Source: a bacterium (GTDB taxonomy: Bacteria > Patescibacteriota > Minisyncoccia > Phycocordibacterales > UBA918). From it: a stretch of DNA of 64,000 nucleotides. Of the stretch, positions 33,669 through 64,000 are shown piece by piece. The position numbers and the translations under genes are program-made. The stretch's first letter is position 1. Each line of letters begins with the position of its first letter. Below the pieces are notes generated by a model, which was not told the DNA's origin, made no database searches, and worked only from the letters and a program-made list of their open reading frames with translations. The stretch covers positions 13,435 through 77,434 of the forward strand of contig PAMC01000016.1 in assembly GCA_002710785.1 (NCBI GenBank), written 5' to 3'.

Positions 33669-33682
33669 ACCTCTTTGCAGTA

Positions 33683-36607: not shown

Positions 36608-36701
36608 AATAAATAACTAGCTGTCACCAATAATTGTAACGAATTTACGTTCCTCTGTGCGCTGCGCACGTTGATAAGTGTTGATAGTAGTTTTGAGCCA
36701 A

Positions 36702-37910: not shown

Positions 37911-37936
37911 ACTACGTACTCAGTATAACAACGGGG

Positions 37937-39262: not shown

Positions 39263-39268
39263 AACAGT

Positions 39269-40799: not shown

Positions 40800-43700
40800 C
40801 TAGTCGGCTGTGGCGGTAAAGGTGTTGATGCCACTGTGTGGTTCACTAGCGGTTCCAAACGGAATAGCAATGCCCCAGTAGAGCGCGTCCGTCACCAGTG
40901 GCGTGCTGGTCGTTGGTTTATTAAGGTCAACCTCAATAGAGCTGCCAATCTCAGAGAGTGTAATACAGGCCGTACAGGTAGTGTGGTCAAAGGATGAGGT
41001 CGCAAATTTCTGCTGCGTTACATCAATGATTGAGACGCCGCCATTGGACATGTCAGTACCCGACACATCAACGTCGAGTGCCTCATTACCAAAGTTACTA
41101 ATGTTTGATACTGGGTTACTACCACTGGCAGTGACACCATTAATGTCGAGTGTGCCGTAGCCAATGAGATTATCAACCGAGATACTGCGTAGCGTGCCAA
41201 CGTCGATTATGCCTGTTGAGGTTTCAAAGTCACTGTTTGTTGCGGCGTCAGCCACTTCAACGTAGGCGTACCACTCTTCTCCCTCATACGGAGAGCCACC
41301 GTCGGTCGGGTCAGTGTGGAAGGCAAAGTCAGCGGTACATGAGAGGCTACAGCTAGTACCGCTACAACCTGAGAGCACACAACCTGTACCAAGAGTCGTG
41401 ACGTAACAGTTGTTGTCGTCTGGTGTACAGCTCGCCCCCACTGTGGTGCGGTAGAAGGTGGTGGTCGCTGCCACAATATCGGCATACCCATTAAGGTCAG
41501 TGACTGTGGTACTTGCTACTACTGGTGTAGTGGTGCCTGGGCTGAGCACTATGTCACTCCCATCGTTAAGCGTCACCACGCCAACCGACGGCGCAAACTC
41601 AAGCGTGAGCTCTGGAATACTGGCGTAGGAGTCAAGTGCCGTGCCGGCGTTCGTGACACGGAAGCAGTACGCATCTTCAGTCGCGTTGCTAGTTAGATTA
41701 AGCGCGTACTCGAGCTCAGTGTAGTACTGTTGGTTGACGTCTACGAATCCGGTCTGGTTATCGGTGTTGCTGACGATCTCACCAGCGGAGAACGTGCCTG
41801 ACGGAATGATAAGATGGTCAGTCGTCGGATCACCACTGCTCACTTGAGTCGTGTTAATCATACAAACAGGGCTCACTCCACAACTACCGGCCGCGGGCAC
41901 CGAGCTGTAACTACCGCCACTCACTGCCTCACACGTTAAGGCGACGCCCTTGCCAGCATACTCTAGTCGAAACTCTTGGTTTGTAATATCGAGTCCTGAA
42001 TTCTCAACCGCTACTCGCAAACGCGCCACGTCACCAAAGTCGTAGCCTGAACCAGCTACCCCCTGCGGTGCACGCCACGTGGCTCCGCCGTCAACCTGCT
42101 CTGCGCCAAAGTACACAGTCGGTTTATTATCGAGTCGTGGGTAGGACACAAAGCTGTCCCAGCCGCCGTAGAAGCCCCAGAACGTGAAGCCAAAGCCGCC
42201 GCTTGTGTAATTAGAATCTGTGGCGGTGGTTGACGCCACGAGCGTGCCGCCGCTGTTGTAGAGCCGCACGTCGATGGTGTCGTCGGTCTGCCAGTCGACT
42301 TCGATCTCGTACCAGCCAGTACTGTACGTGACGTTTGTTTGGTCGAGTACGACTACACCACCTACCAAGTCGGTACTCTCTGCATCACGAACCAAAGAGA
42401 GACGGTCGGTACCCTGTAGCTCGATACACACACCGTAGTTTTCGTTGGTAGTACCTGGTGACTGCACACCAAAGAGTGTACAAGACTCGTCAGATCCACT
42501 CGCGTCCACATACTGACGGTACCGGATAATCTCGCCTTGGCTCACTGTCTGGTCGAAGGTAAAGATACCATCGGTTGCTTTGGCTGTTTCATTACCATTT
42601 GTGTCGAGACCGTTAGAGCCACCCCACGCGTAGGTACTACCAATGTTAAAGAGTGTCGTGTCGCCGCTGTACTCACTTAAACTGCCACTCTCAAAGTCGT
42701 CAACGGCCGTGAAGACGAGGGTGCTGCTACTGGTCGTTGTGGCGGTGAGGTTGTCGTAGTACATGTAGATCTGCGTTGTTGAGGCAGCTGGCAGGCTCGG
42801 TACTTCAACCCACACATCTGCGCTCACGCCGGTGCTAAAGCGCTCGATCCAATGGTCGATCAGTACGGTTCCAGTGCTGTCAGTAAAGCGTAGGTCATCA
42901 AAGTCGGTTTGCATGTCAGAGTCGTACGTCACGCTCAGCAACACTGGCACATTGCTATAGGTGCTGGCATCACCATTCTGCAGCCGCACCCGCTGCCGCG
43001 CATCCCAGTTGGTGTCGTACCACGTACTGGCTACTGCGCCTTCCCCACCGTCGTCGTTACGCCAGCGGTACTCTGTCTGCTCAGTCAAGAGACAGGCGCT
43101 ATCATCCCAACGAATAGAGCTACACGCATCTTCACCATCGACGTCGTAATCCTCACCACTAAGATCACCAAAGTGTGTGCTGAAAATCCAGCTGTTGGTC
43201 GAAGTGGCATCGAGAGTTACGTTGGCGCCACCGGTGAATCCACCATCGGTGAAGACGGCTTCGAGAATGGTCAAACCAGCATTTGCATCAAGCGCAGTCT
43301 GCGGCAGGGTAATCATAGTGGCAGTATTGGTCGCCTGGTTGAAGACACCTCGATCTAGGTCGCTTATGGTTGGGGTACCAACAAACGTCAAGCCACCGGC
43401 TGCCAGATCGTCGAAGGTGTACGTGTCTGCACTGAATGTTCCGCCACTGACAGTGAAGTCATACAGTGTGCTTGCCTCAGCACTCTGGATCGTAGTGCTG
43501 GCGCCAGTGGCGCCAATAATTTCCAAGGTGCCGCTCTCAAGAGTGAAGTTAGACAACGTGCTGGTCGCAAAGGTGACACTCACCGCCCGTGGACTTCCAC
43601 CCAGCGCCACACCGTCAAAGTCAGTTGCGTAACTCCAGTACTCGTTTACGGTCTGACTGACGTACTCACCGTAGATTCTCAGGGCGCCGTCAGAACCAGC

Positions 43701-46700
43701 GTGGTCTTGTGAGTAGATTGAAGACGAGGCGCTCAGTGTGCTCACGAGGTAGTCGCTGTTCCAGAAGCGCACATCGGTATCGCCGATAAGAGTGAGTGTA
43801 TCGTAGGTGTCTCCTGTGCTGGCTTTGGTATTGGCACTAAAATTGGTACCAGCTGCTAAGATCAGCTCGCTATTAGTCCAGGTAGTGTTTGCGCCACCAA
43901 CCGTGTTAGTGAAGACGCCGCCGACATAAAGAGTTTCACTGCTTCCGAGTGTAAACGCGCTAGCGCTCAAGAGACTAAAGTCGCTGGTTGATGTTGCGCT
44001 TGAGAACGTCCAGCCTCCTGTCGCGCTGTTTACTACCACGCGGTAAAACTCGTTGCTGCCTGGATCAACGGTTTCGCCCGTATCGGTAGAGTCGAAGAGG
44101 AGCGTGCTCGTTCCCACATCGAGTGTGCCGCTCGTGGCATCGAGCGAACCGCCAATTGCTGTAGAGCTGCTGGCCAGCCGTAGATTACCAGCAGCAACCG
44201 TCACATCACCCAAGAAGGCGCTCGTTGCATCGGTAACTGTGAAGCTGCCCGATCCGTCAACTTGCAAGCTCGAAAGATCGTTGCCGCCAGCAGTCAAGAC
44301 ATGGGTGCCTGTACCAGTAAGTCGAATGGTGCCGCTATTGTGTGCCACCGTGTCAGACACGACGAAGTCAGTACCGACGGTGAAGGTGCCGCCTGGAAGT
44401 GTTACCGTACCGGTGGCAACCGTAACGCTCGCCGTGGCAGTTGCGTTCGTATCGCTAATACTCCAACTGCCGCTACCTGCAAACTGTATTGTTGCAGCGT
44501 CAGATCCACCAAAAGTGATCGTGTTGCCCGCGTCTGTCGCGGTAAACGCGAGCACTCCGCCGTTAGCGTCGAAGCTACCGCCCGTATTAGTGAAGTCATT
44601 GGCAAAGGTGCTCGTCGCCGCTGGCAACGTCACGTCGCCATTGGTAATGGTGACGTCTCCATTCGCGGCAAAAGTAGTGTCGTTAACGGTCCACGAACCA
44701 GTACCATTGAAGGTGAGCGCACCAAAGGTTGCGTCATTGCTGTCGATTGAGCGACCGCTCTGGGTGCTGGTAAAGGTTAGCGCAGCGTCATTGAGCGCCA
44801 GTGTTGCACCAGCGCCACTTAGGAGCTCGCCGCCAATCGTGTGCGACTCACTGCCTGCGCCGGTAAACGTGGCATTGGCTTGTAGTTCGAGTGTGCCGGC
44901 ATGACTAGCAGTTCCTGTACTGAGTGTGACATCACCGTCAGGGGTAAAGGTCTTACTATCCCACACAATGAGTTTTGTGTCTGTCGGGAAGGATACCGTG
45001 TTGGTACCGCCAGTTGTTGCAGTGAATGGAATGTCAGCATCGTCACTACTATCCCACACAGCCAGGTCAGCAATGCGTATAGCATCCGTGCTCTCGTGTC
45101 GCACAATCACGCGGTCGACGTAGACATCCATGTTGAGAATGTTTGAAATCGGATCAGCAGTCACTGTCGCGCCGGCCTCACTCTCACCGTCGATGTACAC
45201 GATGATACTGTCAGACGGTCCAAAGCCGACATTAGTAAAGGTGTACGCACCAGTACCCGAGGCACAGGTAGTGCTGGCGCTCGTTAGACCAGCTACCACC
45301 AACCGCACATTCGGGGTACTGCCGTCACACTGGGTGTACCAGCTAGTCCCTTCGTCATTGTAGATATTTCCGGAAATTGAGATAAGCGCAGCTGAGTCAC
45401 TCCACACGATTTCGCCAGGATCACCTGAGTCGGCGTCAAACGCCTCACCGTCGAGGTTACCGGTGTGGTTTGTGAAGCGCCACGATGAAACCGAAACTCC
45501 CGAAGTGGTGACGTTTACCGGGCTCGTCACACCACTCTCGTTAAAGGTGTTGCGATCAAAGTTCTTGGCTGGGTTCGCGTCGATCACGCTGCCAGCCACT
45601 GTCATCGCACTCGCATTATTATCGTCAACCAGCCAATCAACATTTACGATATTCACCACTGTCGGTGTGCCCGTAAATGAGAGACCCGCGCTATCAACGT
45701 CACGTGGTTCAGCGTCGAGCCATTCAGTGCTCGCGGTACCGCCAATAGTAAAGCTAAACTCGCCACTGCCTTGGTTTTGGATTGTCGTCGACGCGGTTGT
45801 GGAACCCATAACGTCGAGGCTACCACCAGTATACGTGACGCTTCCGCCCCCTTCGACGTACACATCAGCTTGGCGTGGTGAACCAAGGGCGGCACCATCC
45901 CAATCGGTGGTGTAGCTCCACGAATCGGTGTACGAAGCATTGCTGTACGCTCCAAAGATATATAGATCACCAGCAACGTCGTTGTGATCCATCGAGTAAA
46001 GTGAGCTGCTCGCAGAAATGGTCGTCGTGCTGTAGCTACTGTTCCAGAATCGTGGTTGAGTGCCATTATCGACAACGAGCTCAGCGTAGTCATCAGCGTC
46101 AGTCTTAGTATTTACCTCATACGCCGTATTACCAAACAGCTTCAGAACGGAATTGCTCCAGTTCGTATTTGCCCCGCTGACAGTGTTGGTAAACACGTCA
46201 CCAACTGCCAGCGTATTGCCTGGCTGTAGTGTAAAGGTGAAGGCGCTCGTCAAACTAAAGTCACCGGTAGTAGTTGCGGATTCGGTAAAGAGGTAGGTGC
46301 CGCCGCCGGCCACGCTCACATCGTAGAAATCGGAAGCGCCAGCCGCGACCGACGCCGTACCGGTCGCTTGCAAAAACTCTACCAAGCCGCCGTTGGCCGT
46401 GAAGACGCCGTCGTTATCGTAGCTACCGAATAGCTGCAGGCTGCTGGTATCACTAGCCTCAAGCGTACCGCGAGCGCCAATGTAAGTATCGCCCGCTACT
46501 ACCGTTAATGGATCATTGGTGTCGAGCGTGAACGTAGTCGTACCGCGACTGCCGACAGTTAGATCACCAAACACCTGCAATCCTGTTACCGGGGCTGTGA
46601 CAGCAGTGCTACCCGTTGCTGCTTCGACAGCAAGGTCGAAGTAGGCCGTCCTGGTTACGGTACTGTTGCCTCCGTACGTGATACGACTGGTGTCTTCCAA

Positions 46701-58700: not shown

Positions 58701-61700
58701 TGGTGGGTAGAGTGCATACCCGTCACCTGGTGACGTTGACCGGTGAAACGCGAGTACGGGACTGGTCGCCTCAATCATTACACCGTCACCATCGTTGGCG
58801 TTACCGGAGTTTGACGGGTCAGCCGTAAAAGTTGCAACCGCGCTCGTTGCTATACTTTGCGTTTGGTTGGCGGTGCCCGACGAGCCAATAAACGTACTTA
58901 CCGAAGTGCTGGCAAATGGTGCGTACACGTACCAGCGGTTCGTGTCGCGGTTGGTGGCGCCAATGTGGGTAGTCGTTGCAAACGAAATCGGCACGAGTGT
59001 ATCGCTGTTGCCATTACTGGTGTGTGAGACCGTTGAAGAAATCGGGCCATTCGCACTAATAACCGACGTGCCGGTAAACGTGCTAAAAACCGTGCGGTCG
59101 CCTGCGTCGAGTGTAACGGTACTACCGCCATCAATACTTACCTCGTTATTGTCAATCAAACTAATGACCGAGATATCATCGGCCCCGCTATTATCAACGA
59201 CGTAGTAAAGGTCTTGTGGAGTATCGTAGCTAAAGGTGGCCAACTCATCGCTCGCACTAGTCACGCTCGATGCGCCGTAGTAGAGCCAGATGGTGGTTTT
59301 TGCTCCTGCTGGCAACGATTCTACCTGCACCCACACGTCACTCTCTTGGCCGGAGTAGTCGTAGTGCTGGAGCCAGAAGTCAAGCTCAACAAAGTCTGTT
59401 ACCGTGAGCGCTTCTGCACTAGATGTGGCAAGCCAGCCTGCGTTATCACTCATGCTGTCGTAGATGACACTCGCCCACTCTGGAGTGCGTACCACGTCGG
59501 AGATGCGGAACGAGTCGAGCTGTCCCTCAAAGTTCTCAGCAGTACTAAAGTTACCACCGACAATGTCTTGGTCTTGTCCAATTAAAAGACCGCCGCTGTC
59601 GATACTTGTCGTGGCTATGACCGGACTGGCTGTAATCGGACTTTGCGCATCGCGCAGGCCATTGCGGATAACCGACTTCTCTTGGTTGTCCATATCACGA
59701 ATGGTCATGTAGTACTGCCAGTTGCCATCGTTGTACGTAGCCCCATTGTCGAGCGTCGCAGTTTCTTGGCCACCTTGCGAGTACAAACGAAGTAACGTGT
59801 TATTGTCGAGTCGATCCCAGTATTCGTTGGCTTGTCCGCTGTTGGCACCACTGAGGAGCGTCATGTCACTAATGTTGCTGCTCTCGTGCCACCAAGAGGT
59901 ACTGATGTTGGTGAGACCGTCGATGACTTCTTTTGGCAGACGGATGTAGTCAGTCTGATCGTCGCCAAACTCTTGCCCAGCCCCAAAGAGACCGGTCTTA
60001 TCGTCAGATGTGTTGTAGTCGTCAGCGTGGTACTCGTTAGCGGTCGAGTCGAGGTAGAGATTGTTGTTACCGGTACCAGCTGCATCTTCCTCAAGGTGGT
60101 AGACCGCGCGGTAGTTGTTCGTCCACACGTTCTCTGAGCCATACGTATCATCGCGGGCGTAGGCAGTGGCGTCCGGGTTATTAAAGTAGATGTAGTAGTT
60201 AGTATCGGCAGCCGCGGTGAGATTGGTCTTAAAGTAAAGCTCACCCGTGTTCGCGCCAGTATCAATTGCTACCAGTTCGTACGGGTACTCAGTCTGACCA
60301 TCTTCGCTAATCACGCGGATATCGCGACCGTCGGTTGCAACGTCGTTGAAGAAGGCGCTGCCGAGAATGCTCAAGTCGACGTAGACTGGGAAGTCGGTTA
60401 GATTCTCGCTGGCTGGTACGGTAATGCGCTGACGGTTGTTCCAACTTGTGTTGAACCAGCCCGGAAGCGATGTGCCACCAGCTAGCAGTGTGCTGCTCGT
60501 CGCGTAGAACGTAGTTGGATTGCGGTGGTTTGTTGCCTCGGCGGCGGTCCAGCCGTCGGTTCGCAAGTCGTCGCGCGTGGTAAAGCGCAGTTCGTCGATG
60601 TAGCCGTTATACGAGCCACCAGTCGTGTAGCGACCGACCTGCAGATTGTTCAAGTTGTATGGGTCGGCGATGTCTTGCAGTGCTGTCAACTGCTCAACGC
60701 CGTCTTCGTAGATCACGTGCCGACCGCCAATAGTGGTCTCACTCACTGTCGTAAAGTGTGTCCAAGCGTTAACAATTCCAGTGCGGTCCCAAATAGCATT
60801 TGAGGTTTGACCGAAGTAGAGGTACCCCCGGCCAGTTGCTGTGCCGTTGTTGTACCACGGCATGTACGACATCCAGTTAGGGTTGTTGTTTGTACCCCAC
60901 TGCCAAATCGCTTCCGCGCTGGCTGCTCCCTGCTGGTAAAGCCCGCTCGAGACGAGGTCCGTGCTCGACGCCCAGTTCCAGCCCGTTGCGGTAAGGTGGC
61001 CGCTGCTGGTAACGGTAAGGTCGAGTGCGCTACCCATGGCCCCGGTGGTGGTGGCAACGTTGGCGGTAGTAATAGTAAGGTCACGACCGTTACCCGTTTG
61101 GTCGGTGTAGGTGTCTCCGGTAGTGGTGGCGTTGTCACTAAAGTGGTACACCGCCTCAAAATCAGCCCAAACAGCGTTTCGACCGAGCGGATCACTCACT
61201 GCACGGGCGGTAGCATTTGCGTTGCCGGTGTAGATATGAAAAACCGTATCTTGGGCACCCGAAATGTAGTCGGCCAAGAAGTGCAATTCACCCGTTCGGG
61301 TGTTGGTATTAATTTCCACCACTGAGAGTGGGAGCTCGGTTACACCATCTGCTTTAGTAATACGAATGTCTCCACCATCGCTGCGTACTGTGTTCCAGAA
61401 GTCTGCGCCTAGTGTTGAGAGGTCAACAAACACTGGGTAACTGCTTAGGGCACCAGGTACTGCGCTCGCTTGCACAATGAGCGCGGTGCGTTCGCTCCAC
61501 GCTGGGTCATACGGATTTTCAAACTGCGTGGTAGTGGACTGGTAGAGATTGCCGCTGGTAATTTCTTGGACAAAACGAATGTCAGACCCATCGCTCTGCA
61601 CGTTGCTCCAGAAGTCACTTAAAGCGCTATCAAGTTGTAAGAATACCTGATGCTCAGTCAAATCGGTGGTGCCGCTGGTGTTATCAATCTCAATTGGAAT

Positions 61701-63956
61701 CCGGTACGTCCAGTCACTGTTCCAGAATGGGTCGAGGAGTCCGTACTCTTGGGTTCCCACTGCCTCGATCCAAAACTCACCTCTTGAAAAGGCTGGAAAT
61801 TCAATATCCATCTTAAAGTACCGTGTCTCACCTGCCTGGATGGTGAAGGACTCTGGAGTTTCGGTGCGTACCTCAAACTGCGGTGGCACCTCCTTTACCG
61901 CTGGGGCTACCCCGAGCAAACCACCGAGCCGAGCCAATCGACTGGTGTTAGTAGGCACAGCGTCAGTAGAGACTTCGGCAGTTTGCCAATCACGTCGGTA
62001 CACGGTTTTTGCGTGTTCAGCGACTCGCTTTTGCGTAATCCGACACTCAGTCTCCTCGCTGCCGAGCACGTCACACTGCTGCACCTGTTGAGTACTCGGG
62101 CACCAGTAACTGGCAGCGACAGTCTCCGTACTGCTGGTAGCGGCGCTCGTTGCGGTTGCTTGAGTAAACGGACGTAGGTCCAGCGCACGTGATTGTACTG
62201 CGGTCGTCCCGCTACTTGTTGCTGCACTCGTCTCAGGAGTTGGCTCAGTAGTGGTTGAGGTTTGGTCAGAAGACTCCGCTCCTGACGCAGCTGCGCTCGT
62301 GGTGGCCAAAGCTGCTTCATTCGAGGTGGTGGCGGTCTCTTCACTGGCAGCGATTGCAAGCTGGCCTTCAGTAGCCATCTCCCAACCACCGCTACAGTGG
62401 TAGACAAACGGGCGGAACTCCGGAATAGTTACTGCGCGTGGCCGGTTCTGGTTCCAGACTGATAGTTCAGTGACCTCTCCAACGCCATTAGGGAAGTACG
62501 TCTTAACGGTAAACGAATCTGTCCGGTCGCTCGTGTTAGAGACGTTAAAGTACATAGTCGCTTGCGTAAGTCCGTTGTAGGTCACATCGTCAGACTTAAT
62601 AATGAGCGTCTCGCCACGATTCTCGTCAGTAAAGCTAAAGTCGATAGTTTCCCCATTAGGGAGGGTGAGCGTATCGCCAGCCAGAACTTCGTCGCTAAAG
62701 TTATCGTCAAATGCCGCGAGTGGGTCGAGGGTCTCGTCCTCGGCAGTAGTAAAGAGCTCAAGCCAAACGGCATCGATATAGAGCTCCTCGAGTGTGCTGC
62801 GTTTGCCTTCGTACGCGACGCGAACCGAAAGATCGCGCAAGCTATCGGCGTCGGTGATAAACGGCAGAGCGAAGAGGTAGTAGTCACCATTAATGCTGTT
62901 ACTAACCTCGTCTTCAATTGTGATGTCACCGCCATCTTGCCACGTAGCCTCACCATCGAGTGAGTACTGGATGGTGAAGCGAGCCGCTTCGTCGAGGCGA
63001 GTGCTGCGCTTCTTCGCACCTAGGGAAAGTCGGAGTTGCCCCCCCGTCACCTGAGCATTGTCGGTAAATACGGGTAGCCAGAAGTCTTGCAGGGTCACGC
63101 CGTAGCTGCGTACTTCATTTTTGATATCAACGCCAATTCTTGGAGTCTCGTCAATCACGTCGGGACGCACATTCGCCTCATCGCGTGGCGTGGATGTGGC
63201 AACCGCGTCGCCACTGCTGGCCGGTGACGTACTGGTTGCTACTAGCGTTGGTGAAGTCGTGGCAGTTTCTGTCGTGCTCGTTGCACTACTTGGTTTCTCT
63301 TCAGGAGTTTCGAGTTCCTCTGTAGCGTTATCGGTAGTTGTCGCAGCTGACTCACTCTCGGACAGAACTTCTGTAACAAGTGCAGGGTCAGGTTGTGCTG
63401 CTTCGGTTTCTTGCGACTCATCAAGTGCCGCAGTGTCTGCCTCACTTTCGTCGCTCGTGGTAGCACTGTTTACAAACGCAAAGCGCTCCACAAAGTTCGC
63501 AAACGCAAACTGGAACTGTGTCCCCAGCCGGCGTAAAACAGTCGTGGTGGCGCTTGAGGTACTCTGGGTCGTCTCGGCTTCTGGTGGCGTGACGGGAACC
63601 GTGGTTGTAGCGATTGTTGGCTCAGAACTGGTTGCTGTCTCTGGCTCAGCAACTGGAACAGGGGCTTCTTCGGTACTACTGGCTACAGGCTGCTCATCAG
63701 CGGGGTCTACCACCTCTTCTGCTTCGGCAGATTCACCGTCTGGTTCTTGTACCGGCAGTGTAGTGCTCGCACTTGAGGTGGCTGTCTCCTCAGTCGCTTG
63801 CGGCGGAGTGTTTAGGCGCAGTGTCTCAACTCGGCGCACGTTTGGCTCAAGTGGTAAGTACGCAGAGTTAATCGTATTAAAATCTTGGTATAACGCATCA
63901 CCAGAAAGGTTCTGGTTGAGAATGGTCTCGACGTTTTCCCAGCCGCTGCTCATCAC
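40800..63956 (-). CDS. giant cell-surface protein (at least 7718 aa; N-terminus may lie beyond the window): low-complexity N-terminal region, 7 DUF2341-like modules, 6 LamG-like (concanavalin-like) domains, FN3-like and beta-helix-like repeats, Cys-rich C-terminal region
   Basis: Single 23 kb reading frame, open upstream of the GTG at 63956 to the window edge; DUF2341-like W-x-[YF]-R-x-x-I-x-I...L-T-[DN]-FPVYVDLS...SDG-DIR...YIYF at about 61740, 61440, 60400, 53810, 52240, 50200, 43070; LamG-like D-E-L-R-F at about 60590, 52990, 51410, 49375 and others. Confidence 0.85.
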   Translation of the reverse strand: MMSSGWENVETILNQNLSGDALYQDFNTINSAYLPLEPNVRRVETLRLNTPPQATEETATSSASTTLPVQEPDGESAEAEEVVDPADEQPVASSTEEAPVPVAEPETATSSEPTIATTTVPVTPPEAETTQSTSSATTTVLRRLGTQFQFAFANFVERFAFVNSATTSDESEADTAALDESQETEAAQPDPALVTEVLSESESAATTTDNATEELETPEEKPSSATSTTETATTSPTLVATSTSPASSGDAVATSTPRDEANVRPDVIDETPRIGVDIKNEVRSYGVTLQDFWLPVFTDNAQVTGGQLRLSLGAKKRSTRLDEAARFTIQYSLDGEATWQDGGDITIEDEVSNSINGDYYLFALPFITDADSLRDLSVRVAYEGKRSTLEELYIDAVWLELFTTAEDETLDPLAAFDDNFSDEVLAGDTLTLPNGETIDFSFTDENRGETLIIKSDDVTYNGLTQATMYFNVSNTSDRTDSFTVKTYFPNGVGEVTELSVWNQNRPRAVTIPEFRPFVYHCSGGWEMATEGQLAIAASEETATTSNEAALATTSAAASGAESSDQTSTTTEPTPETSAATSSGTTAVQSRALDLRPFTQATATSAATSSTETVAASYWCPSTQQVQQCDVLGSEETECRITQKRVAEHAKTVYRRDWQTAEVSTDAVPTNTSRLARLGGLLGVAPAVKEVPPQFEVRTETPESFTIQAGETRYFKMDIEFPAFSRGEFWIEAVGTQEYGLLDPFWNSDWTYRIPIEIDNTSGTTDLTEHQVFLQLDSALSDFWSNVQSDGSDIRFVQEITSGNLYQSTTTQFENPYDPAWSERTALIVQASAVPGALSSYPVFVDLSTLGADFWNTVRSDGGDIRITKADGVTELPLSVVEINTNTRTGELHFLADYISGAQDTVFHIYTGNANATARAVSDPLGRNAVWADFEAVYHFSDNATTTGDTYTDQTGNGRDLTITTANVATTTGAMGSALDLTVTSSGHLTATGWNWASSTDLVSSGLYQQGAASAEAIWQWGTNNNPNWMSYMPWYNNGTATGRGYLYFGQTSNAIWDRTGIVNAWTHFTTVSETTIGGRHVIYEDGVEQLTALQDIADPYNLNNLQVGRYTTGGSYNGYIDELRFTTRDDLRTDGWTAAEATNHRNPTTFYATSSTLLAGGTSLPGWFNTSWNNRQRITVPASENLTDFPVYVDLSILGSAFFNDVATDGRDIRVISEDGQTEYPYELVAIDTGANTGELYFKTNLTAAADTNYYIYFNNPDATAYARDDTYGSENVWTNNYRAVYHLEEDAAGTGNNNLYLDSTANEYHADDYNTSDDKTGLFGAGQEFGDDQTDYIRLPKEVIDGLTNISTSWWHESSNISDMTLLSGANSGQANEYWDRLDNNTLLRLYSQGGQETATLDNGATYNDGNWQYYMTIRDMDNQEKSVIRNGLRDAQSPITASPVIATTSIDSGGLLIGQDQDIVGGNFSTAENFEGQLDSFRISDVVRTPEWASVIYDSMSDNAGWLATSSAEALTVTDFVELDFWLQHYDYSGQESDVWVQVESLPAGAKTTIWLYYGASSVTSASDELATFSYDTPQDLYYVVDNSGADDISVISLIDNNEVSIDGGSTVTLDAGDRTVFSTFTGTSVISANGPISSTVSHTSNGNSDTLVPISFATTTHIGATNRDTNRWYVYAPFASTSVSTFIGSSGTANQTQSIATSAVATFTADPSNSGNANDGDGVMIEATSPVLAFHRSTSPGDGYALYPPTMEPIYGHDSNYVFAGGTGTTNADYYCSDDTTSGTEPLTRGDRQVVDGCTAAAQFDGDSVRLVAQSEPIAAIQQADSDGRESVAFWSEREFGTEFALTNDAQFVAVACSPRFGTATIEIISPAGTTVTSGSCGAGGDYPGTIHFGDSGTNSNVTYTEGHTVVSTNGVPIYVIYEDVSVDSEETNVTGTVQARKYGNVFGASFGAQELANDARYEQRSFAWYQNEDVSTPTSTWSIGSGEFVSEGEDIRGAGAVDNGDILRLRMNLAASNATGTEDSLAFKLQYGTATQDQCSLITEWLDLAEQSSTTAAFAGFNNASVGDGTTLATTTLTDSTVLGTYEERNLSNVLPNDVGVGEVVEFDWVITAVDVGINTNYCFRMVRATGGELQTYTLYPQLETAGPPNVPQLISYFDNAHIADLDTQLTFVTTDNAGDEIDYQVQIDTDPAFPSPVVDVNSADSFLDFENVADASDKAPFVSGATVRFTTPTTLASSTTYWWRVRASDPDGSATSSAWSTPYSFTTNPTLTVTEWYQTTGDQFSTDTLTAGLSTTTGAVTGATGTITGTEIDFDDALIGNAWGEVFWSDTETAGTITIQVEYNNNGTWTLVPNNLIEGNSAGTTTSPIDILALDTSTYNELRLVANFAGSTLSLEEWGVRWALRVETPVLGDLFDNQKTAETLPTFDFISSDPQGDDLEYEISFSTDRTFETSSSTYNSSTSPGFANLSDGGDTNPFTSGDTITYTKQAGEAFVNGTTYWWRTRAKDPNGGDAWSPWSEADAFTIDTSVTVSTWFQTTDEQFEQGTLDGTVATSGAVTVSPEFGEYGTVSLTDNNWTEVTTLRSYQNMVVVASPEYDGSSYGNNRNARVRNKTANTFEIKVDDYTNAFTGSTDVDYIVMEAGTWTLDEGGSGIQVIAGTAANVSAVQARPFQNDIGTEIDYSSNPFINPPVGIATVASNNDSDWIGTHIDGNVNTNGNGNGPRDDEIEEDGMQIALNASYDGVTSHGAEDVDYVIMDVADGTINGADFEAFNSSDSVDDTQGQGGHNQSFQTGFGSTPQVTLVHNNAEDGGDGGFGIKDTSGTNNASQIFLSLMEDGLGANGHTQEIVSVIAFEASSGLLTRANAGTLSGTIAGEPVIFSDGAGPKFENFDWTDSTPATSDIVYQLQYQVSADTWALIPDSAIPGNSVGTTTGPIDLTNVDINIYDTIRPYATLTCGGGNCPEVQDWQVEWSEGVTMSGNIFENDRITPVASGTVRAAVNGVLLSATGTIASGTWSLPNVTAFAGQTVQVWVDGAADPDEAVTAFVYDGLGDITGVTLYEGHLAFDADETGTVDVSGLALYDNSISANEDIFFNVDLANNLDVCAVGTCGDFNIYVAANQEFRPSSSTAAVITTHDIVNDGTLTLDSNTLEVSGSWINTATTSVAAATVAFNALVGTETIIDPSDPLAFNSLTFGTSTSVAQWDISADLDLSGNLIVAAGTFNRGTSSIAVAGDVRTYAGAQWSGVGTTTFDGSGSSIWQDLNASTSLQNIGIVVVDGASKTIVVDTAAAAYDVNIGANDTLNGGSDTLIQVGGDWTNSGSFIAGTSEVEIVPDDRTYPGIIPGSSDWYSDTDFTQRLPIALQASEIDSSLTNFPVYVDLSTLGSSFWGAVKSDGGDIRMTTDDGQTEIAVEVVSINSNTQTGELHFLAPSASSTGDTTFYLYFNNPSASMPASFSTYGSEAVWVDFDAVYHFEVATTGVNTIVPDATANGYDLTITGADIATSTGQLGTAITLVGSSGILTNSWSWASGDRLESSGWYKLSAASSEALWSWGTGADMNFMPWYSGTQRGYHRFGSTAGAFTFDFTPRDTVNWQHFTTVGPTSTSEQVITYINDIVRDNPTQTAADPSGGALQLGRYTTAGSWEGEMDELRFAQSTRGADWVSAEYSNQSDPTAFYATSSVETYVPDIIPDAPSHQITTGGSAFYALTLNDATTTPYFSDAAVTVDDDFTVATGTVTFPTTKLTVGGSFLNQGTFMHNNAELEFTSSAAETVTLGGTTFLNILDDVTFDGSGSWSITDTHATATGAVTISDGTVTFPSGNLSIGDTLTVTGSGSFSNNGGLVLFSSTNEEQVRTNGSAFNDVQFGTLSSLPWYGSGWNERVALTIAPNTVEASLSDFPVYVDLSTLGSDFWNGVASDGADIRVANGSGFVALPVDVVEFDAVGETGELHFLADSISDTATTTFYIYFANADATAPASDSAYGSEAVWDNYEAVYHFHEDPTISITDETGNGRDLTPAIGTPATTTGTLGTALDTTSGNVRLENAGWTWPAGEDMVSSGWYFQSAVDTGALWQFGVAVGGSEDTYLHYLPWYDSGDRGYFRFGETSGSDFRFTRNSTIWHHFTTVGRAAIGETNQIYEDNILRDSVTQTADGENPSNTGLRVGAYQTTVYMDIQIDELRFSSTTPSTAWIDAEYTNGNTPTAFYGVAASSESFTDAVPRFILKESTTDIDGNVVVQSSELIAPNDTLTIGGSMTTLDGLFDANTATTTFDSSAGNETISIEDNSFYNLVFDAAGGDWTPSGNVDVVNDARLVNGTQFTLAPDAVMTVGGIFTNSFASTSTTWTDSTIVLTGGDYTITGRLDDGDDYGTIQVSNDSDIVIWNSTIATSTILDTSSLYLPDFGGTNGLLRVYGEYQRMSGTEHWSYATDFDGTDLTGGNERPVTVEIGNGSELTFGTSTTLSVLGDATSTTTVSVLFGLYQLNLENATFASQYADFSGMGAEGIELRNGTTISTLTQTDIAVPAGRTGITVDAATMNAQPSSVFTGVSFASTTATNVYSADWNSQLTLTVPASSTLSTLTEYPVYVNLASLGSDFWSNVKSDGADIRVTTAGANELPIDVVEINTTTQTGELHFLAPAVSAAQDTTFYIHYNNPTASAYAATYRYGSEAVWDNYEAVYHFNEDPTVSITDETGNGRTLLPAVGTAATTSGQLGQAVDTTTSNVMLQSAGWTWTSGDDLISSGLYFMTNTDTGALWQFGTGNGTNNGTYLAFMPNYDLTNRGRHFFGITSGGEYTVSPYNNTIWHHFTTIGRATDGENNLIYEDNTLQDTVTQISSSQNPSNTGLKIGRYQGGTYGEIQVDELRFATSTQGTDWIDAEFRNFLQPDEFYATSTVSTAAGANVTTDGTPSTYWLFTGGGGDRYGEAFDADDGDPGSIQWDDSNYNISISGVVYADDGVTPMGAPVCNNSTAVVTVVIDGGTTYQTSCDAATGAYEVAGVTYVGEPKITAFLSSTASSSEVNVAILDETSGTGTVTSNLMNVTRPTVVDNSVLVLIAGKDDEPLINTLGGWTAIDSFGNTTGDDLASGAWYKVVADASTEPASYDFPVTDNNETYNYWMGSLLNVDTASPLAATTNWSKLQNEYDPIAPTATTTIDGSLVIAAAHVFNDTDVAVPSGNWATRAQNVVDGTNHNLGVVSRVARPAGATSTAQFGNVTIGRESQVIQMSFNPDASPTATGTAIAAVVTKTPLGAAAQPYKTINLVDQRTAVGTVANGATFTVERPEVENGDVLIAITAREDEFDISAPSGWQLEGELGLTTGNDMYTAVWSRVITNAATEAETYAFTNNDTAGTEEFSAWIGAYRGVDTSDIFDTDPVWSNEQNTSSPVAPGITTTNDGSYVLAAWYVIDDNDLVGPTSPWSTILQDARQGSRNLLLSSQLQTSAGATGDATATGGSTDDVNVVQFALKPASVSVLDSISDFDLYQNRVIVRHEDISPLSIADMNIFDSGDNGDVPFTVSTSTTPDSLTVSASSGLMVWNSKTFTGNGDITLAGSGGSTQDGSLLLGPSATLNMSGTEVLTIGGSLYLDTAATFNTPSSTVLFTATTTGQSIASAASSTLAFTAVSFTGAGGGWGVQTPITVINNLTVATGTLSGTSDITITNGNFTGNGTVAMVNGTVEIDRTNTLGGTTPWQFYNLVLGDGVTATQVTTPFGSATTTVRNRLTIDSGHLLDAGSSQWDLTGDGTVFVEDGTFLEDTSRITYGGNSTVTRTAYFDLAVEAATGSTAVTAPVTGLQVFGDLTVGSRGTTTFTLDTNDPLTVVAGDTYIGARGTLEASDTSSLQLFGSYDNDGVFTANGGLVEFLQATGTASVAAGASDFYDVSVAGGGTYLFTESATTTGDFSLTSAFTFTLQPGNTLAVGDVFTNTVSGANTNWSNSVLKLFGNTAYEVNTKTDADDYAELVVDNGTQPRFWNSSYSTTTISASSSLYSMDHNDVAGDLYIFGAYSNASYTDSWSYTTDWDGAALGSPRQADVYVEGGGSVTYTGGSLDVMGSTTASTTIQNQGSGEFSFTIGGTASTEWLDAEPRDVDSAGLSFTGTPTVVNIVNVDWLVDDNNASAMTVAGSVIDANPAKNFDRNTFNESGVTSPVNVTTSGVSVSSWRFTNHTGNLDGEAFDADSGDPGEIVWSDSAALISISGNIYNDEGTSWYTQCDGSTPNVRLVVAGLTSASTTCASGTGAYTFTNVGFGPSDSIIVYIDGESEAGATVTADPISNILNMDVYVDRVIVRHESTDAIRIADLAVWDSSDDADIPFTATTGGTNTVSFPTDTKLIVWDSKTFTPDGDVTLSTGTASHAGTLELQANATFTGAGSESHTIGGELLSGAGATLALNDAALTFTSTQSGRSIDSNDATFGALTFNGTGSWTVNDTTFAANGDVTITNGDVTLPAATSTFANDFTNTGGSFDANGGVLAFTATDAGNTITFGGSDAATIQFAGSGSWSISDTNATATASVTVATGTVTLPGGTFTVGTDFVVSDTVAHNSGTIRLTGTGTHVLTAGGNDLSSLQVDGSGSFTVTDATSAFLGDVTVAAGNLRLASSSTAIGGSLDATSGTLDVGTSTLLFDSTDTGETVDPGSNEFYRVVVNSATGGWTFSSATSTSDFSLLSASAFTLGSSETLYVGGVFTNTVGGANTTWTNSELILAAGTNFSANTKASTGDTYDTLTLIGDTDVRFWNSDYLVSTLSASSSIYSQDHAGSDGALRIYGEYVSQTVNEYWSYATDFDGVALGGSPRAVSVTFATSTLSNFTLESGTLEIIGATGASTTIQSAEASTLYDFTVSGGTFSADTYTFDDLAAGGLTFVGTPTISDLDRGVFNQATNTATMITLPQTALDANAGLTILEAVFTDGGFTGGANVTLDATSTNSWIFSTHFGDLSGEDYDVDGEDACSSIRWDDSACLLTEQTEYRWRNDDGGEGAVASTWYDTNWDARQRVRLQNGDASTYSNVPVLLSVTYDSDMQTDFDDLRFTDSTGTVLIDHWIERFSTGVSADVWVEVPSLPAASTTQIYMYYDNLTATTTSSSTLVFTAVDDFESGSLSEYSGDTTLFNIGSTYAWGGSNGLDTNGNETAKATDGIFTFDQTVSQGEIIRYRQYVDASGSDESCTLFGVQSPGTTNENYGVCIELQGTDRLSLVRDAESTDLVGGVVVLDQTNVTYSTGWYEIEVDWQTDDTIDVRLYNSGGTLVASTTATDSNYTSGGFGFTFWGFYGGWDSFVSYPRLDNKPTVYFGAEQVDGGATWRAPQGVAGSGYDFGDVARLRVAVENSGLDITNQEFRLEYAGKGVALTCEAVSGGSYSSVPAAGSCGVSPVCMINTTQVSSGDPTTDHLIIPSGTFSAGEIVSNTDNQTGFVDVNQQYYTELEYALNLTSNATEDAYCFRVTNAGTALDSYASIPELTLEFAPSVGVVTLNDGSDIVLSPGTTTPVVASTTVTDLNGYADIVAATTTFYRTTVGASCTPDDNNCYVTTLGTGCVLSGCSGTSCSLSCTADFAFHTDPTDGGSPYEGEEWYAYVEVADAATNSDFETSTGIIDVGTLRSISVDNLIGYGTLDINGVTASGSNPVSNISNFGNEALDVDVSGTDMSNGGVSIIDVTQQKFATSSFDHTTCTACITLSEIGSSIEVDLNKPTTSTPLVTDALYWGIAIPFGTASEPHSGINTFTATAD
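49250..52250. repeat. intragenic tandem duplication (about 2.04 kb period) of a DUF2341-like + LamG-like module inside the giant gene, with a near-identical core
   Basis: 49861-49957 and 51904-52000 differ at 5 of 97 positions by eye (cggccgttgcctgtttcgtcggtaatact...gaagtggtacaccgcctcgtagttatcccacaccgcttctgagccgta); flanks are about 70 percent identical over several hundred bp. Confidence 0.6.
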
Positions 63957-64000
63957 CGTACCTGGGAATACATTGACGGTCGATACGGTGACGGAGCTAC

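What the first reader, a model, noticed from the sequence alone, without database searches (positions are those of the whole stretch)
40800..63956. Giant ORF of at least 7718 codons, still open at the window edge, built from repeated DUF2341-like + LamG-like modules
The reading frame stays open upstream of the first start codon through to the window edge, so the protein may be longer. By eye, seven modules show the DUF2341 pattern (W-x-[FY]-R-x-x-[IV]...FPVYVDLS...SDG-DIR...YIYF-N). Most are followed about 270 aa later by a LamG-like D-E-L-R-F motif. Between them lie FN3-like segments (YWWRVRASD, TTYWWRTRAKD) and long beta-helix-like T-F-x-G-x-G-S-W stretches. An N-terminal TSEAP-rich tract of about 500 aa precedes them, and the C-terminus is Cys-rich. 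The size and modularity suggest an adhesin or fibre.
Basis: partly seen in the sequence, partly recalled or inferred. Interest (0 to 1): 0.75.

Follow-up and report, generated by a model that had tools for sequence, protein, structure and literature searches.

The report
Giant lectin-studded CPR surface protein
This is a real 23-kb gene of an uncultured marine ultra-small (Paceibacterota/CPR) bacterium encoding a roughly 7,770-residue secreted protein with sugar-binding-like modules, most likely a surface fibre for attaching to a host or to glycans; relatives already sit unstudied in public databases.

Summary
On the minus strand, 40800-63998 is one stop-free frame of 7,732 codons that is still open at the window edge. 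An independent Tara Oceans assembly calls the same gene at 7,773 aa, so only about 41 codons are missing. Orthologues show that the missing part is a Sec signal peptide. It is not a chimera: internal repeats are old, other assemblies are 99.99-100% identical over the parts retrieved, and an intact 7,440-aa orthologue is collinear end to end.

The gene lies in a conserved cluster with an FN3 protein, a MacB-type ABC transporter and cohesin/dockerin proteins.

The best reading is a secreted, multivalent glycan-binding fibre or adhesin of an episymbiont. This is inferred, not shown. Giant DUF2341 proteins in Patescibacteria have already been noted in the literature, so this is a new member of a known kind.

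The parts
40800..64000 (-). Giant gene. The stop codon is at 40800-40802. 7,732 codons are visible and the frame is open to the window edge. The full gene is 7,773 aa in an independent assembly.
63849..63998 (-). aa 1-50: conserved mature N-terminal motif (TVxVFPxxVxxxGWxN...LYQDFNxINSA). In orthologues it directly follows a Sec signal peptide with an AXA-like cleavage site. The signal peptide itself lies beyond the window edge.
63159..63848 (-). aa 51-280: T/S/E/A/P/Q-rich low-complexity linker 1.
62409..63131 (-). aa ~290-530: non-low-complexity N-terminal segment, collinear with the close giant orthologues. No Pfam hit and no structure model.
62079..62408 (-). aa 531-640: S/T/A-rich low-complexity linker 2.
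61563..61727 (-). aa 758-812: partial DUF2341 copy (first half of the domain).
60492..61508 (-). aa 831-1169: module 1, DUF2341 plus LamG-like jelly roll (DELRF).
59448..60452 (-). aa 1183-1517: module 2, DUF2341 plus LamG. This is the only LamG seen by Pfam (Laminin_G_3 47.4 bits; Pentaxin 30.8 bits).
58119..59390 (-). aa 1537-1960: divergent DUF2341 plus a ~370-aa domain with no Pfam family and no solved relative. It is the part best conserved among orthologues. The search with aa 1530-2090 found 541 relatives, including giant DPANN-archaeal proteins.
57513..57947 (-). aa 2018-2162: copy of the 'ct1' beta-sandwich, also present at aa 7299-7469 and four times in the 2053-aa neighbour.
56202..57491 (-). 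aa 2170-2599: two repeats of an FN3/Ig-like domain (Ig_Rha78A_N, Pur_ac_phosph_N) plus a following domain.
52899..53888 (-). aa 3371-3700: module 3, DUF2341 plus LamG-like. This is the module modelled with AF2 (pLDDT 86, pTM 0.89).
52311..52829 (-). aa 3724-3896: G/T-rich repeat region with the TFxGxGSW motif. It is related to aa 6387-6650. A beta-solenoid is suspected but not tested.
51318..52316 (-). aa 3895-4227: module 4, DUF2341 plus LamG-like.
50271..50933 (-). aa 4356-4576: copy 1 of repeated domain X. The other copies are at aa 5940-6193 and 6700-6959.
49272..50273 (-). aa 4576-4909: module 5, DUF2341 plus LamG-like. It is absent from orthologues P0232, P0229 and P0233.
47553..49250 (-). 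aa 4917-5482: domain Y (repeated at aa 6162-6269) and two copies of domain Z (aa 5037-5244 and 5274-5482). No family or PDB match. The Z pair is absent from P0233 and L004.
43122..47537 (-). aa 5488-6959: unannotated beta-rich region made of repeated units. These are solenoid-like stretches at aa 5488-5679 and 6284-6660, X2 at 5940-6193, Y2 at 6162-6269 and X3 at 6700-6959.
42705..43031 (-). aa 6990-7098: DUF2341 copy 8 (Pfam 66 bits).
42102..42716 (-). [not shown]
40803..42104 (-). aa 7299-7732: three C-terminal beta-sandwich domains (ct1, ct2, ct3) with invariant cysteines. ct2+ct3 recur in the 631-aa protein encoded at 34712-36607.
26522..40780 (-). Co-oriented, tightly spaced cluster. Its first six genes are syntenic with those downstream of the giant gene in L004, and in part in L005 and L013. 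Genes: FN3/Pur_ac_phosph_N protein (39269-40780); MacB-type ABC ATPase (37937-39262) and permease (36702-37910); 631-aa protein (34712-36607); 323-aa protein (33683-34654); DUF4215/dockerin protein (32535-33668); cohesin-domain membrane proteins (26522-30781).

Best explanation
The gene encodes a Sec-secreted, very acidic protein of about 820 kDa. It is modular and all-beta where modelled, and it belongs to a marine Paceibacterota (CPR/Patescibacteria) bacterium.

Proposed working model:
- After signal-peptide cleavage, a short conserved N-terminal motif and two S/T/A/E/P-rich linkers sit next to the cell envelope.
- A long chain of beta-sandwich domains, and possibly beta-solenoid domains, projects away from the cell.
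- Along this chain it displays five DUF2341+LamG-like lectin-type modules. Near the C-terminus it displays a sixth, different lectin fold (CBM66/L-type-lectin-like) in a disulfide-stabilised module.
- The protein would therefore act as a multivalent glycan-binding fibre that attaches the ultra-small cell to the surface polysaccharides of a host cell or to polysaccharide particles.
- The lectin modules behave as gain-and-loss cassettes that could tune specificity.
- The conserved neighbouring genes (FN3 protein, MacB-type ABC transporter, cohesin and dockerin proteins, and a 631-aa protein sharing the last two domains) probably help to assemble or hold it on the surface.

Shown: the gene is real and intact, the domain and fold assignments, secretion signals in orthologues, conservation and synteny.

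Inferred: extracellular fibre geometry, glycan binding, host attachment, and any role of the neighbours.
For: Gene is real:
- The frame is stop-free.
- Other Tara assemblies are 99.99-100% identical over the parts retrieved, window 29269-50780. One of them (ERZ908547),015 aa of the gene up to its contig end.
- Another assembly calls the gene at 7,773 aa.
- Internal repeats are only 28-60% identical at protein level and at most 80% at DNA level.
- The intact orthologue P0232 (7,440 aa, present in NCBI, JGI and Logan) is collinear over 96% of the query.

Secreted and extracellular:
- All orthologues with a complete N-terminus start with a basic n-region, a hydrophobic h-region and an AXA-like site.
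- No TM-like segment exists in the 7,732 aa (maximum Kyte-Doolittle 19-mer score 1.42).
- There are 16 invariant cysteines.
- The two AF2 models are essentially all-beta.

Lectin-like modules:
- The PDB profile search hits AbnA domain 4, an S-layer-domain protein, neurexin LNS, toxin Hc and pentraxin.

Cassette behaviour: modules are present or absent between orthologues on a conserved scaffold.

Synteny.

Literature:
- Giant Patescibacteria proteins with FhaB/DUF2341 domains have been proposed to act in adhesion or host interaction (PMC11809585).
- Giant surface proteins are implicated in host attachment in the CPR bacterium Vampirococcus (PMC8080830).
- DUF2341 proteins have been proposed as pilus-tip adhesins in archaea (PMC4858521).
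Against: - No binding, localisation or expression data exist.
- About 70% of the protein has no recognisable family, so an enzymatic or other activity could be hidden there.
- No recognised anchoring device was found: no LPXTG, C-terminal TM segment, dockerin or RTX repeats, and no SLH, LysM or other anchoring-domain hit in the Pfam scans. How, or whether, the protein stays on the cell is unknown.
- Which end is distal is a guess.
- The host, if any, is unknown.
Confidence: 0.6

Rival explanations
1. It is a polysaccharide-capturing or polysaccharide-degrading scaffold, a cellulosome-like nutrient-acquisition complex. The ConA-like modules would be CBMs or cryptic glycanases acting on marine polysaccharides, and the cohesin and dockerin neighbours would build the complex. 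Host-cell attachment would not be its purpose.
For: Cohesin and dockerin domain proteins flank the gene here and in orthologous loci. The best structural matches are CBM-type domains of glycoside hydrolases: AbnA domain 4 and CBM66, with GH16, GH43 and PL folds further down the lists. Dockerin-type giant proteins of Omnitrophota were interpreted as acting in attachment and glycan processing (bioRxiv 10.1101/2023.11.21.568195).
Against: No catalytic family was detected anywhere in the protein or in the immediate neighbours. The giant protein has no dockerin or cohesin of its own. From general knowledge, CPR bacteria have minimal catabolism and mostly a symbiotic lifestyle.
Confidence: 0.14
2. 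It is a structural envelope component, a fibrous coat or S-layer-like or glycocalyx-like protein. Its size and lectin folds would serve self-assembly and protection rather than specific adhesion.
For: A LamG domain of an 'S-layer domain-containing protein' (4qvs) is the second-best sequence-profile match. The protein is extremely acidic (pI ~4.05). Several co-encoded proteins share its terminal domains, as would be expected for co-assembling parts. Vampirococcus giant proteins were linked to a fibrous surface (PMC8080830).
Against: No SLH or other S-layer anchoring domain was found. One 7.8-kaa chain is an unlikely lattice monomer. The cassette-like gain and loss of lectin modules between orthologues fits a changing ligand better than a constant lattice.
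Confidence: 0.14
3. It is a type IV pilus-associated tip adhesin. This is how DUF2341/COG5306 proteins are annotated in archaeal pilus loci, and by analogy with lectin-bearing modular pilins.
Against: Orthologue N-termini are classical Sec signal peptides with AXA-like sites, not class III prepilin signals. No pilus assembly gene (PilB, PilC, PilM, PilT or prepilin peptidase) was detected in the 64-kb window or in the 10-kb flanks of orthologues.
Confidence: 0.07
4. It is an assembly chimera, or a pseudogene read through by chance.
For: Several relatives are fragmented by frameshifts (L001, L003, L004, L005; one frameshift in L002). The NCBI MAG of the same organism has N-gaps inside the gene.
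Against: There are 7,732 codons without a stop. The sequence is identical in independent assemblies, and one assembly gives a 7,773-aa call. There are no near-identical internal repeats. An intact 7,440-aa orthologue is collinear from end to end, and further intact orthologues of 7,072 and 6,589 aa exist. The fragmentation in relatives coincides with a 2x-coverage contig and with a contig whose flanking genes are also broken, so sequencing errors are the likely cause (my inference).
Confidence: 0.02

Closest known systems
Giant (>4,000 aa) Patescibacteria proteins carrying FhaB and/or DUF2341 domains (census in the Patescibacterium danicum paper, PMC11809585)
   Same: Same phylum-level group, same size class and same DUF2341 marker domain. 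There is no full-length conservation outside close relatives. The proposed role in adhesion or host interaction is the same, as is the suggested domain reshuffling.
   Different: That paper gives only counts (149 proteins over 4,000 aa, 82 with FhaB and/or DUF2341). It does not dissect this family. The present protein has no significant FhaB/Fil_haemagg hit (E 0.03 only). It does have defined orthologues (7,440, 7,072 and 6,589 aa) and a conserved gene neighbourhood.
DUF2341/COG5306 (MJ1470-like) large proteins of archaeal type IV pilus loci (PMC4858521) and giant DUF2341 proteins of DPANN archaea (e.g. MBN2101901.1, 5,382 aa, Aenigmarchaeota)
   Same: They share DUF2341 and the ~430-aa 'DUF2341 plus unannotated domain' unit (giant aa 1537-1960; 31% identity, E 8e-106). 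They are large, secreted, multidomain proteins of ultra-small symbionts.
   Different: No pilus genes lie nearby and there is no prepilin-type signal here. Overall architecture outside the shared unit was not compared in detail.
Stand-alone ~350-400-aa DUF2341+Laminin_G_3 proteins of Paceibacterota and other CPR (e.g. a Wolfebacteria hypothetical protein, P0152)
   Same: They have the same two-domain module at 30-38% identity over 94-99% of its length.
   Different: They are single-module proteins. Here five such modules are embedded in one 7.8-kaa chain.
Giant fibrous adhesins of cultivated bacteria: RTX adhesins (MpIBP, SiiE, FrhA/LapA), Ebh/Embp, the 7,651-aa Mobiluncus Ig-repeat adhesin, and Apilactobacillus kunkeei Giant1-5
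   Same: Similar size, extracellular beta-rich modular build, ligand-binding (often lectin-type) modules carried on spacer domains, and the largest gene of the genome.
   Different: The present protein has no RTX repeats and no T1SS. It has no LPXTG sortase signal. It has no long array of near-identical repeats, since its repeats are few and 28-60% identical. Its domain families are different.
Omnitrophota giant proteins (Archaeovorins and Dockerin-type; bioRxiv 10.1101/2023.11.21.568195)
   Same: Giant genes in ultra-small, presumably host-dependent bacteria. They carry CBM, DUF1080-like and dockerin-associated themes, and attachment or glycan processing has been proposed.
   Different: Those proteins are 4-10 times larger. 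They have HEAT repeats, dockerin and enzymatic domains and TM anchors. Here dockerin and cohesin are on neighbouring proteins only, and no enzyme domain is seen.
AbnA domain 4 (PDB 5hon) and BoNT/TeNT Hc-N, pentraxin and CBM40 jelly rolls; CBM66 (PDB 4b1m) and L-type lectins
   Different: Sequence identity is only 13-22% to the best-matching folds (AbnA domain 4, CBM66) and lower to the rest. Ligand-binding residues were not compared. The DUF2341 half of the module has no solved relative detectable by sequence.

Membership tests
DUF2341 (Pfam PF10102 / COG5306) | Match to the Pfam HMM above the gathering score (23.4 bits). | tested here: met
   90.2 and 89.2 bits for the two halves of the protein. 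Individual copies score 80, 49.5, 34 and 66 bits. Eight copies are found with two independent custom profiles.
Laminin_G_3 / ConA-like lectin-glucanase superfamily (PF13385) | Match to the Pfam HMM above the gathering score (27.6 bits). | tested here: inconclusive
   Met for module 2 only (47.4 bits; also Pentaxin 30.8 bits). Modules 1, 3, 4 and 5 give no Pfam hit even at E<=10.
Laminin_G_3 / ConA-like lectin-glucanase superfamily (PF13385) | ConA-like jelly-roll fold, and homology through intermediate sequences. | tested here: met
   [not shown]
RTX / T1SS giant adhesins (LapA, SiiE, MpIBP type) | C-terminal GGxGxD nonapeptide repeats with a T1SS signal, and an adjacent T1SS (ABC with C39/CLD, MFP, TolC). 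| tested here: not met
   There is no GGxGxD motif anywhere. Orthologues use N-terminal Sec signals. The neighbouring ABC system is MacB/FtsX-type, and no HlyD or TolC hit appeared in the Pfam scans of the neighbouring genes.
Sortase-anchored Gram-positive surface proteins (MSCRAMM, Ebh type) | C-terminal LPXTG followed by a hydrophobic segment and a basic tail. | tested here: not met
   The protein ends ...GINTFTATAD. The only LPxT[GAS] is internal, at aa 6898. There is no hydrophobic 19-mer above 1.42 on the Kyte-Doolittle scale.
Type IV pilin-fused or pilus-tip adhesins | Class III (prepilin) signal or N_methyl motif, and linkage to pilus assembly genes. | tested here: not met
   Eleven of twelve orthologue N-termini aligned are Sec type (one, P0001, is a mis-started call) with AXA-like sites. 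No N_methyl or pilus gene was detected in the window or in orthologue flanks. The window's own first ~41 codons are not visible, so this rests on orthologues.
Two-partner-secretion exoproteins (FhaB/TpsA) | N-terminal TPS (Haemagg_act) domain, Fil_haemagg repeats and a TpsB partner. | tested here: not met
   There is no Haemagg_act hit. Fil_haemagg scores only E 0.03 and 15 bits, below the 21.5 cut-off. No TpsB gene was found among the neighbours. From general knowledge, the CPR envelope lacks an outer membrane.
Cellulosomal components | A dockerin or cohesin module in the protein itself. | tested here: not met
   The giant protein has no Dockerin_1 or Cohesin hit and no dockerin-type D-x-[ND]-x-[DNS]-G-x-[IVL]-x-x-x-D motif. 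Neighbouring proteins do carry both.
Orthologous group of giant Paceibacterota proteins (P0232 7,440 aa; P0377 7,072 aa; P0233 6,589 aa; L001, L002 and L004 loci) | End-to-end collinearity, the shared N-terminal motif, the shared C-terminal 1,033-aa module and the same downstream gene order. | tested here: met
   Collinear over 96% of the query with P0232 at 46-48% identity. The N-terminal motif aligns. The C-terminal module is 41-69% identical in 62 homologues. Synteny holds in L004, L005 and L013.

The most novel reading that the evidence does not exclude
The giant protein may be the centrepiece of a conserved, so far undescribed surface 'attachment apparatus' of Paceibacterota. It would be a Sec-secreted fibre held and possibly actuated by the syntenic set of genes: membrane-anchored cohesin-domain proteins, dockerin proteins, a 631-aa protein sharing its two terminal domains, and a MacB-type mechanotransmitting ABC transporter. 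Its core unit (DUF2341 plus a ~370-aa domain with no known fold) is shared with giant proteins of DPANN archaea. That would point to a common, perhaps horizontally exchanged, host-attachment toolkit of ultra-small episymbionts in both domains.
Probability: 0.15. Interest if true: 0.7.

Novelty: new member of a known kind. Interest (0 to 1): 0.42.

Why it matters
CPR/Patescibacteria are a large share of bacterial diversity. They are thought to live attached to hosts, yet the molecules that mediate attachment are almost unknown outside Saccharibacteria.

A single gene that takes about 2% of a roughly 1-Mb genome must be under strong selection. That genome size is an assumption, based on one 993-kb relative contig. 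The gene is kept intact and collinear across species that are only 45-50% identical.

This analysis gives a concrete parts list:
- a secretion signal;
- six lectin-type domains of two kinds;
- a widely conserved disulfide-bonded C-terminal module with high-confidence models;
- variable cassettes;
- a conserved neighbourhood.

Together these make the adhesion hypothesis experimentally testable through glycan arrays, pull-downs and cryo-ET.

The analysis also shows how public annotation hides such genes. The NCBI MAG of this very organism calls only a 1,388-aa fragment because of scaffold gaps.

It does not by itself overturn anything. Giant DUF2341 proteins in this phylum have already been noted.

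Tried and rejected
1. Protein searches with the whole protein or the first 5,000 aa failed. One was too long and the other timed out, so I searched with three sub-regions instead.
2. NCBIfam gave nothing meaningful for any part.
3. Pfam on 20 finer segments at lenient E-values gave only sub-threshold hints: H_lectin 0.024, Fil_haemagg 0.03, a beta-helical trimerisation domain 0.017 and SO2946-like_C 0.0016. I do not rely on these.
4. Sequence searches of solved structures found nothing for the solenoid-like region, for domain Z, or for the profile of the aa 1537-1960 domain family.
5. Foldseek of the C-terminal model against PDB returned only generic strings of Ig/MG-like domains (integrin legs, alpha2-macroglobulin, mastigoneme) with TM 0.1-0.15. 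This is uninformative beyond 'chain of beta-sandwiches'.
6. The afdb50 library was unavailable. I therefore could not test my recollection that MshQ-type pilus proteins share the DUF2341+LamG pair, and I make no claim about it.
7. The genome-contig scan found only one relative at 40% identity. The source genome is not in that collection. Its identity came from the exact-sequence look-up of the neighbouring FN3 protein.
8. I considered programmed frameshifting to explain the split orthologues and rejected it. Break points differ between loci. They occur in a 2x-coverage contig and in a contig whose flanking genes are also fragmented.
9. I searched for RTX, LPXTG, dockerin and TM anchoring motifs and found none.
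10. tRNA scan: none in the window.
Full report

The ORF listing reports 40800..63956 (-), 7,718 aa from the first GTG. Translating 40800-63998 (-) gives 7,732 sense codons and a single terminal stop. The frame is still open at the window edge. By my own arithmetic, a stop-free run this long in ~53% GC DNA is about (61/64)^7732, roughly e^-371, so chance cannot explain it. Composition is uniform across the gene and its surroundings.

**2. How much is missing, and is it an assembly artefact?**

I looked up the exact sequence of the FN3 protein encoded just downstream (39269-40780). The same locus turned up in several Tara Oceans assemblies:
- ENA ERZ908547 contig k127_640534 is 100% identical to window 29269-50780. 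There the giant gene runs into the contig end at 6,015 aa.
- A JGI contig (3300020367) is 99.99% identical.
- NCBI MAG GCA_002331125.1 (DCYQ01000032.1) carries 636 N and small overlaps inside the gene, so only a 1,388-aa fragment is called there.
- In ENA ERZ2777187 scaffold_79 the gene is called at 7,773 aa.

The window therefore lacks about 41 codons.

Orthologue N-termini all begin with a basic stretch, a hydrophobic stretch and an S/F/V-Y/H-A site followed by Q/E/N. A conserved motif, TVxVFPxxVxxxGWxN...LYQDFNxINSA, follows. The window ORF starts about 5 residues after the predicted cleavage site. The missing piece is therefore the Sec signal peptide.

Repeat-driven mis-assembly is unlikely. 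Internal protein repeats are 28-60% identical. The best DNA repeat is 74% identical over 243 nt, and the short ones reach at most 83%.

An intact 7,440-aa orthologue (P0232, also present in NCBI and Logan data on a 210-kb contig) is collinear with query residues 1-4570 and 4906-7732 at 46-48% identity. Further orthologues of 7,072, 7,036 and 6,589 aa exist.

Fragmented relatives (L001, L003, L004, L005, and one frameshift in L002) break at different places. They include a 2x-coverage contig and a contig in which all genes are fragmented. I read these breaks as sequencing errors.

**3. Whose gene is it?**

The window also encodes UvrA, UvrB, UvrC, TGT, Ddl, FKBP and a redoxin. Almost every gene is on the minus strand. 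It is therefore cellular DNA, not viral.

The relatives that carry names are mostly labelled Candidatus Paceibacterota, Kaiserbacteria, Parcubacteria or Minisyncoccia, with a few odd labels on MAG fragments. A 1,669-aa Tara gene fragment is 100% identical to the C-terminus. The organism is thus a marine member of the CPR/Patescibacteria.

**4. Anatomy**

Residue i corresponds to nt 63998-3(i-1). From N- to C-terminus:
- **aa 1-50:** the conserved N-terminal motif.
- **aa 51-280 and 531-640:** two low-complexity T/S/E/A/P tracts. They flank a non-low-complexity segment (aa ~290-530) that is collinear with the close orthologues. The search with the N-terminal 1,160 aa found only 14 relatives.
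- **DUF2341 domains:** eight in all, at aa 758-812 (a half copy), 831-946, 1183-1294, 1537-1590, 3371-3486, 3895-4008, 4576-4689 and 6990-7098. Pfam scores the two halves of the protein at 90 and 89 bits against a cut-off of 23.4. Two independent custom profiles find all eight.
- **LamG-like domains:** five of the DUF2341 copies are followed directly by a ~215-aa LamG-like domain, at aa 947-1169, 1296-1517, 3487-3700, 4010-4227 and 4691-4909.
- **FN3/Ig-like repeats:** aa 2170-2599 (Ig_Rha78A_N 29.6 bits).
- **Other repeated units:**
  - X, three copies: aa 4356-4576, 5940-6193, 6700-6959
  - Y, two copies: aa 4917-5026, 6162-6269
  - Z, two copies: aa 5037-5244, 5274-5482
  - G/T-rich stretches: aa 3724-3896, 5488-5679, 6284-6660

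*LamG evidence.* Pfam's Laminin_G_3 recognises only module 2 (47.4 bits). Three other lines of evidence support them:
- The module exists as a stand-alone ~350-aa protein in many CPR genomes. Most of those proteins are pre-annotated with PF13385, with or without PF10102.
- A profile of 55 such homologues hits PDB LamG-type domains: AbnA domain 4 at 2.6e-15, an S-layer-domain protein, neurexin, clostridial toxin Hc and pentraxin.

*Beta-helix question.* The strict TFxGxGSW motif occurs only three times. Only sub-threshold Fil_haemagg/beta-helix hints exist. The beta-helix idea is therefore untested.

*Coverage.* Only about 29% of residues fall in any recognisable domain. NCBIfam and PDB sequence searches add nothing.

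**5. The C-terminal module**

The last 1,033 aa are the most widely conserved part. The search found 103 homologues; the 62 I aligned are 41-69% identical over most or all of it. All 16 cysteines are invariant.

- L-type lectins and DUF1080-type domains
- phage receptor-binding modules
- the Aap and SraP adhesin lectin domains

The remainder is a chain of beta-sandwiches. Domain ct1 (aa 7299-7469) recurs at aa 2018-2162 and four times in the neighbouring 2,053-aa ORF. Domains ct2 and ct3 (aa 7469-7732) recur in the 631-aa protein encoded four genes downstream.

**6. The conserved unannotated unit**

Residues 1284-2076 are the stretch best conserved among orthologues, at 58-63% identity. I searched aa 1530-2090 against 1.8 billion cluster representatives. 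This gave 541 hits at E<=1e-3.

The hits include the intact giant orthologues. They also include giant proteins of DPANN archaea, for example a 5,382-aa Aenigmarchaeota 'DUF2341 domain-containing protein'.

The ~370 aa after the DUF2341 part have no Pfam family and no solved relative.

**7. Gene neighbourhood**

Downstream genes are co-oriented with short gaps:
- an FN3/Pur_ac_phosph_N protein
- a MacB-type ABC ATPase and its MacB_PCD/FtsX permease
- the 631-aa protein
- a 323-aa membrane protein
- a DUF4215/Big_6/dockerin protein
- several cohesin-domain proteins with C-terminal TM anchors

The order giant, FN3, ABC, FtsX, ~620-630 aa, ~310 aa is kept in L004 and L013, and in fragmented form in L005. 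A dockerin protein follows in L004 and L005. In L013 a dockerin protein, HSP20 and a cohesin protein lie just upstream of the giant gene. L003 has HSP20 and a cohesin protein in the same position.

No pilus genes were seen.

**8. How it most likely works**

*Shown:* the gene is intact, conserved and encodes a protein with a Sec signal in orthologues. The visible protein has no TM segment, LPXTG, RTX repeat or dockerin. It is very acidic (pI ~4.05, 817 kDa). It is all-beta where modelled. It carries six lectin-type jelly rolls of two kinds.

The lectin modules vary between orthologues on a conserved scaffold:
- P0232 lacks module 5.
- P0229 lacks residues 931-1523 and module 5.
- P0233 lacks modules 3 and 5 and the Z pair.

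*Inferred:* the protein is exported and stays associated with the envelope by an unknown device. Candidates are the conserved N-terminal motif next to the linkers, or the shared ct2-ct3 domains together with the cohesin and dockerin neighbours. It would extend as a fibre on the order of 100-250 nm. This is my rough estimate, assuming 40-55 domains of 3-5 nm each. It would bind glycans on a host cell or on particles multivalently.

This agrees with what has been proposed for giant Patescibacteria proteins (PMC11809585), Vampirococcus giant surface proteins (PMC8080830) and archaeal DUF2341 proteins (PMC4858521). I give it 0.6.

*Rivals and my estimates:*
- cellulosome-like polysaccharide capture or degradation: 0.14
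- structural coat: 0.14
- type IV pilus tip adhesin: 0.07, disfavoured by the Sec-type N-termini and the absence of pilus genes
- artefact or pseudogene: 0.02

**9. Comparison and novelty**

The protein is a clear member of DUF2341-containing proteins. It also belongs to a definable orthologous group of giant Paceibacterota proteins.

It fails the defining tests for RTX/T1SS adhesins, sortase-anchored adhesins, TpsA/FhaB exoproteins, pilin-fused adhesins and cellulosomal components (see the membership table).

The existence of proteins over 4,000 aa with DUF2341 in Patescibacteria is already published as a census (PMC11809585). Orthologues sit in public databases as 'hypothetical' or 'DUF2341 domain-containing' proteins. 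I therefore rate it a new member of a known kind, with moderate interest.

The parts that could become interesting are:
- the conserved cluster with a MacB-type transporter and cohesin/dockerin proteins;
- the unannotated unit shared with DPANN giants;
- the unknown anchoring mechanism.

Noticed in passing
window 18536-24697 (-): A second large ORF of 2,053 aa has no Pfam hit. Its N-terminal region contains an Asp-box-like 'TTDGGATWG' motif. It carries four copies of the giant protein's ct1 beta-sandwich and a region similar to giant aa 1974-2178 (31.6% identity, E 6e-21).
   Followed up: partly
window 34712-36607 (-): A 631-aa secreted or membrane protein shares the giant protein's last two domains (giant aa 7469-7732). 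BLASTP gives 26% identity at E 7e-12, and the profile domain E-values are 1e-9 and 1e-19. Its position is conserved in L004, L006 and L013. A shared terminal module could mean co-assembly or a common attachment device.
   Followed up: partly
window 26522-33668 (-); L013:5930-9885; L003:726-2150: The cluster looks like a cohesin-dockerin system. It has two cohesin-domain proteins with C-terminal TM anchors, a 242-aa protein whose sequence combines a cohesin domain with a dockerin-like EF-hand pair, and a DUF4215/Big_6/dockerin protein. In orthologous loci a cohesin protein and HSP20 lie immediately upstream of the giant gene.
   Followed up: partly
window 36702-39262 (-): A MacB-type ABC pair is syntenic with the giant gene in every orthologous locus examined (L004, L005, L013). 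The ATPase is 441 aa, and its ABC domain ends near residue 174. That leaves about 260 aa with no Pfam hit.
   Followed up: no
L007 (NCBI GCA_002331125.1, DCYQ01000032.1) versus window 45047-50118: The public MAG of the same organism has 636 N and short duplicated overlaps inside the giant gene. Only a 1,388-aa fragment is called there, so the giant gene is hidden in the public annotation.
   Followed up: yes
window 49254-53561 and 60474-61181 (-): The four LamG-like domains carrying the DELRF motif escape Pfam Laminin_G_3 even at E<=10. The one without that motif (DSFRI, module 2) scores 47 bits. The DELRF type looks like a divergent LamG subfamily, common in stand-alone CPR proteins.
   Followed up: partly
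window 58119-59390 (-); P0236, P0238, P0240, P0263: The 'DUF2341 plus ~370-aa unannotated domain' unit has relatives in giant proteins of DPANN archaea (Aenigmarchaeota, up to 6,971 aa). The search with aa 1530-2090 found 541 cluster representatives in all. No Pfam model or solved structure covers the ~370-aa part.
   Followed up: partly
window 15917-18533 (-): Two adjacent ORFs of 581 and 331 aa have no Pfam hit. They are paralogues (28% identity, E 1e-15), and their called coordinates overlap by 125 nt.
   Followed up: no
window 33683-34654 (-) and 30897-32042 (-): A 323-aa protein has hydrophobic N- and C-terminal segments. A 381-aa secreted protein ends in ...RYVATPIF, resembling the ...IVYLVTPEF end of the 2,053-aa ORF. 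Neither has a Pfam hit. The 323-aa protein's position is conserved next to the 631-aa gene in relatives.
   Followed up: no
window 1-64000: The window has no tRNA genes. Apart from the 223-aa hydrolase gene at 1041-1712, every ORF I took to be a gene is on the minus strand. The giant protein is extremely acidic (979 D+E against 259 K+R, pI ~4.05).
   Followed up: no
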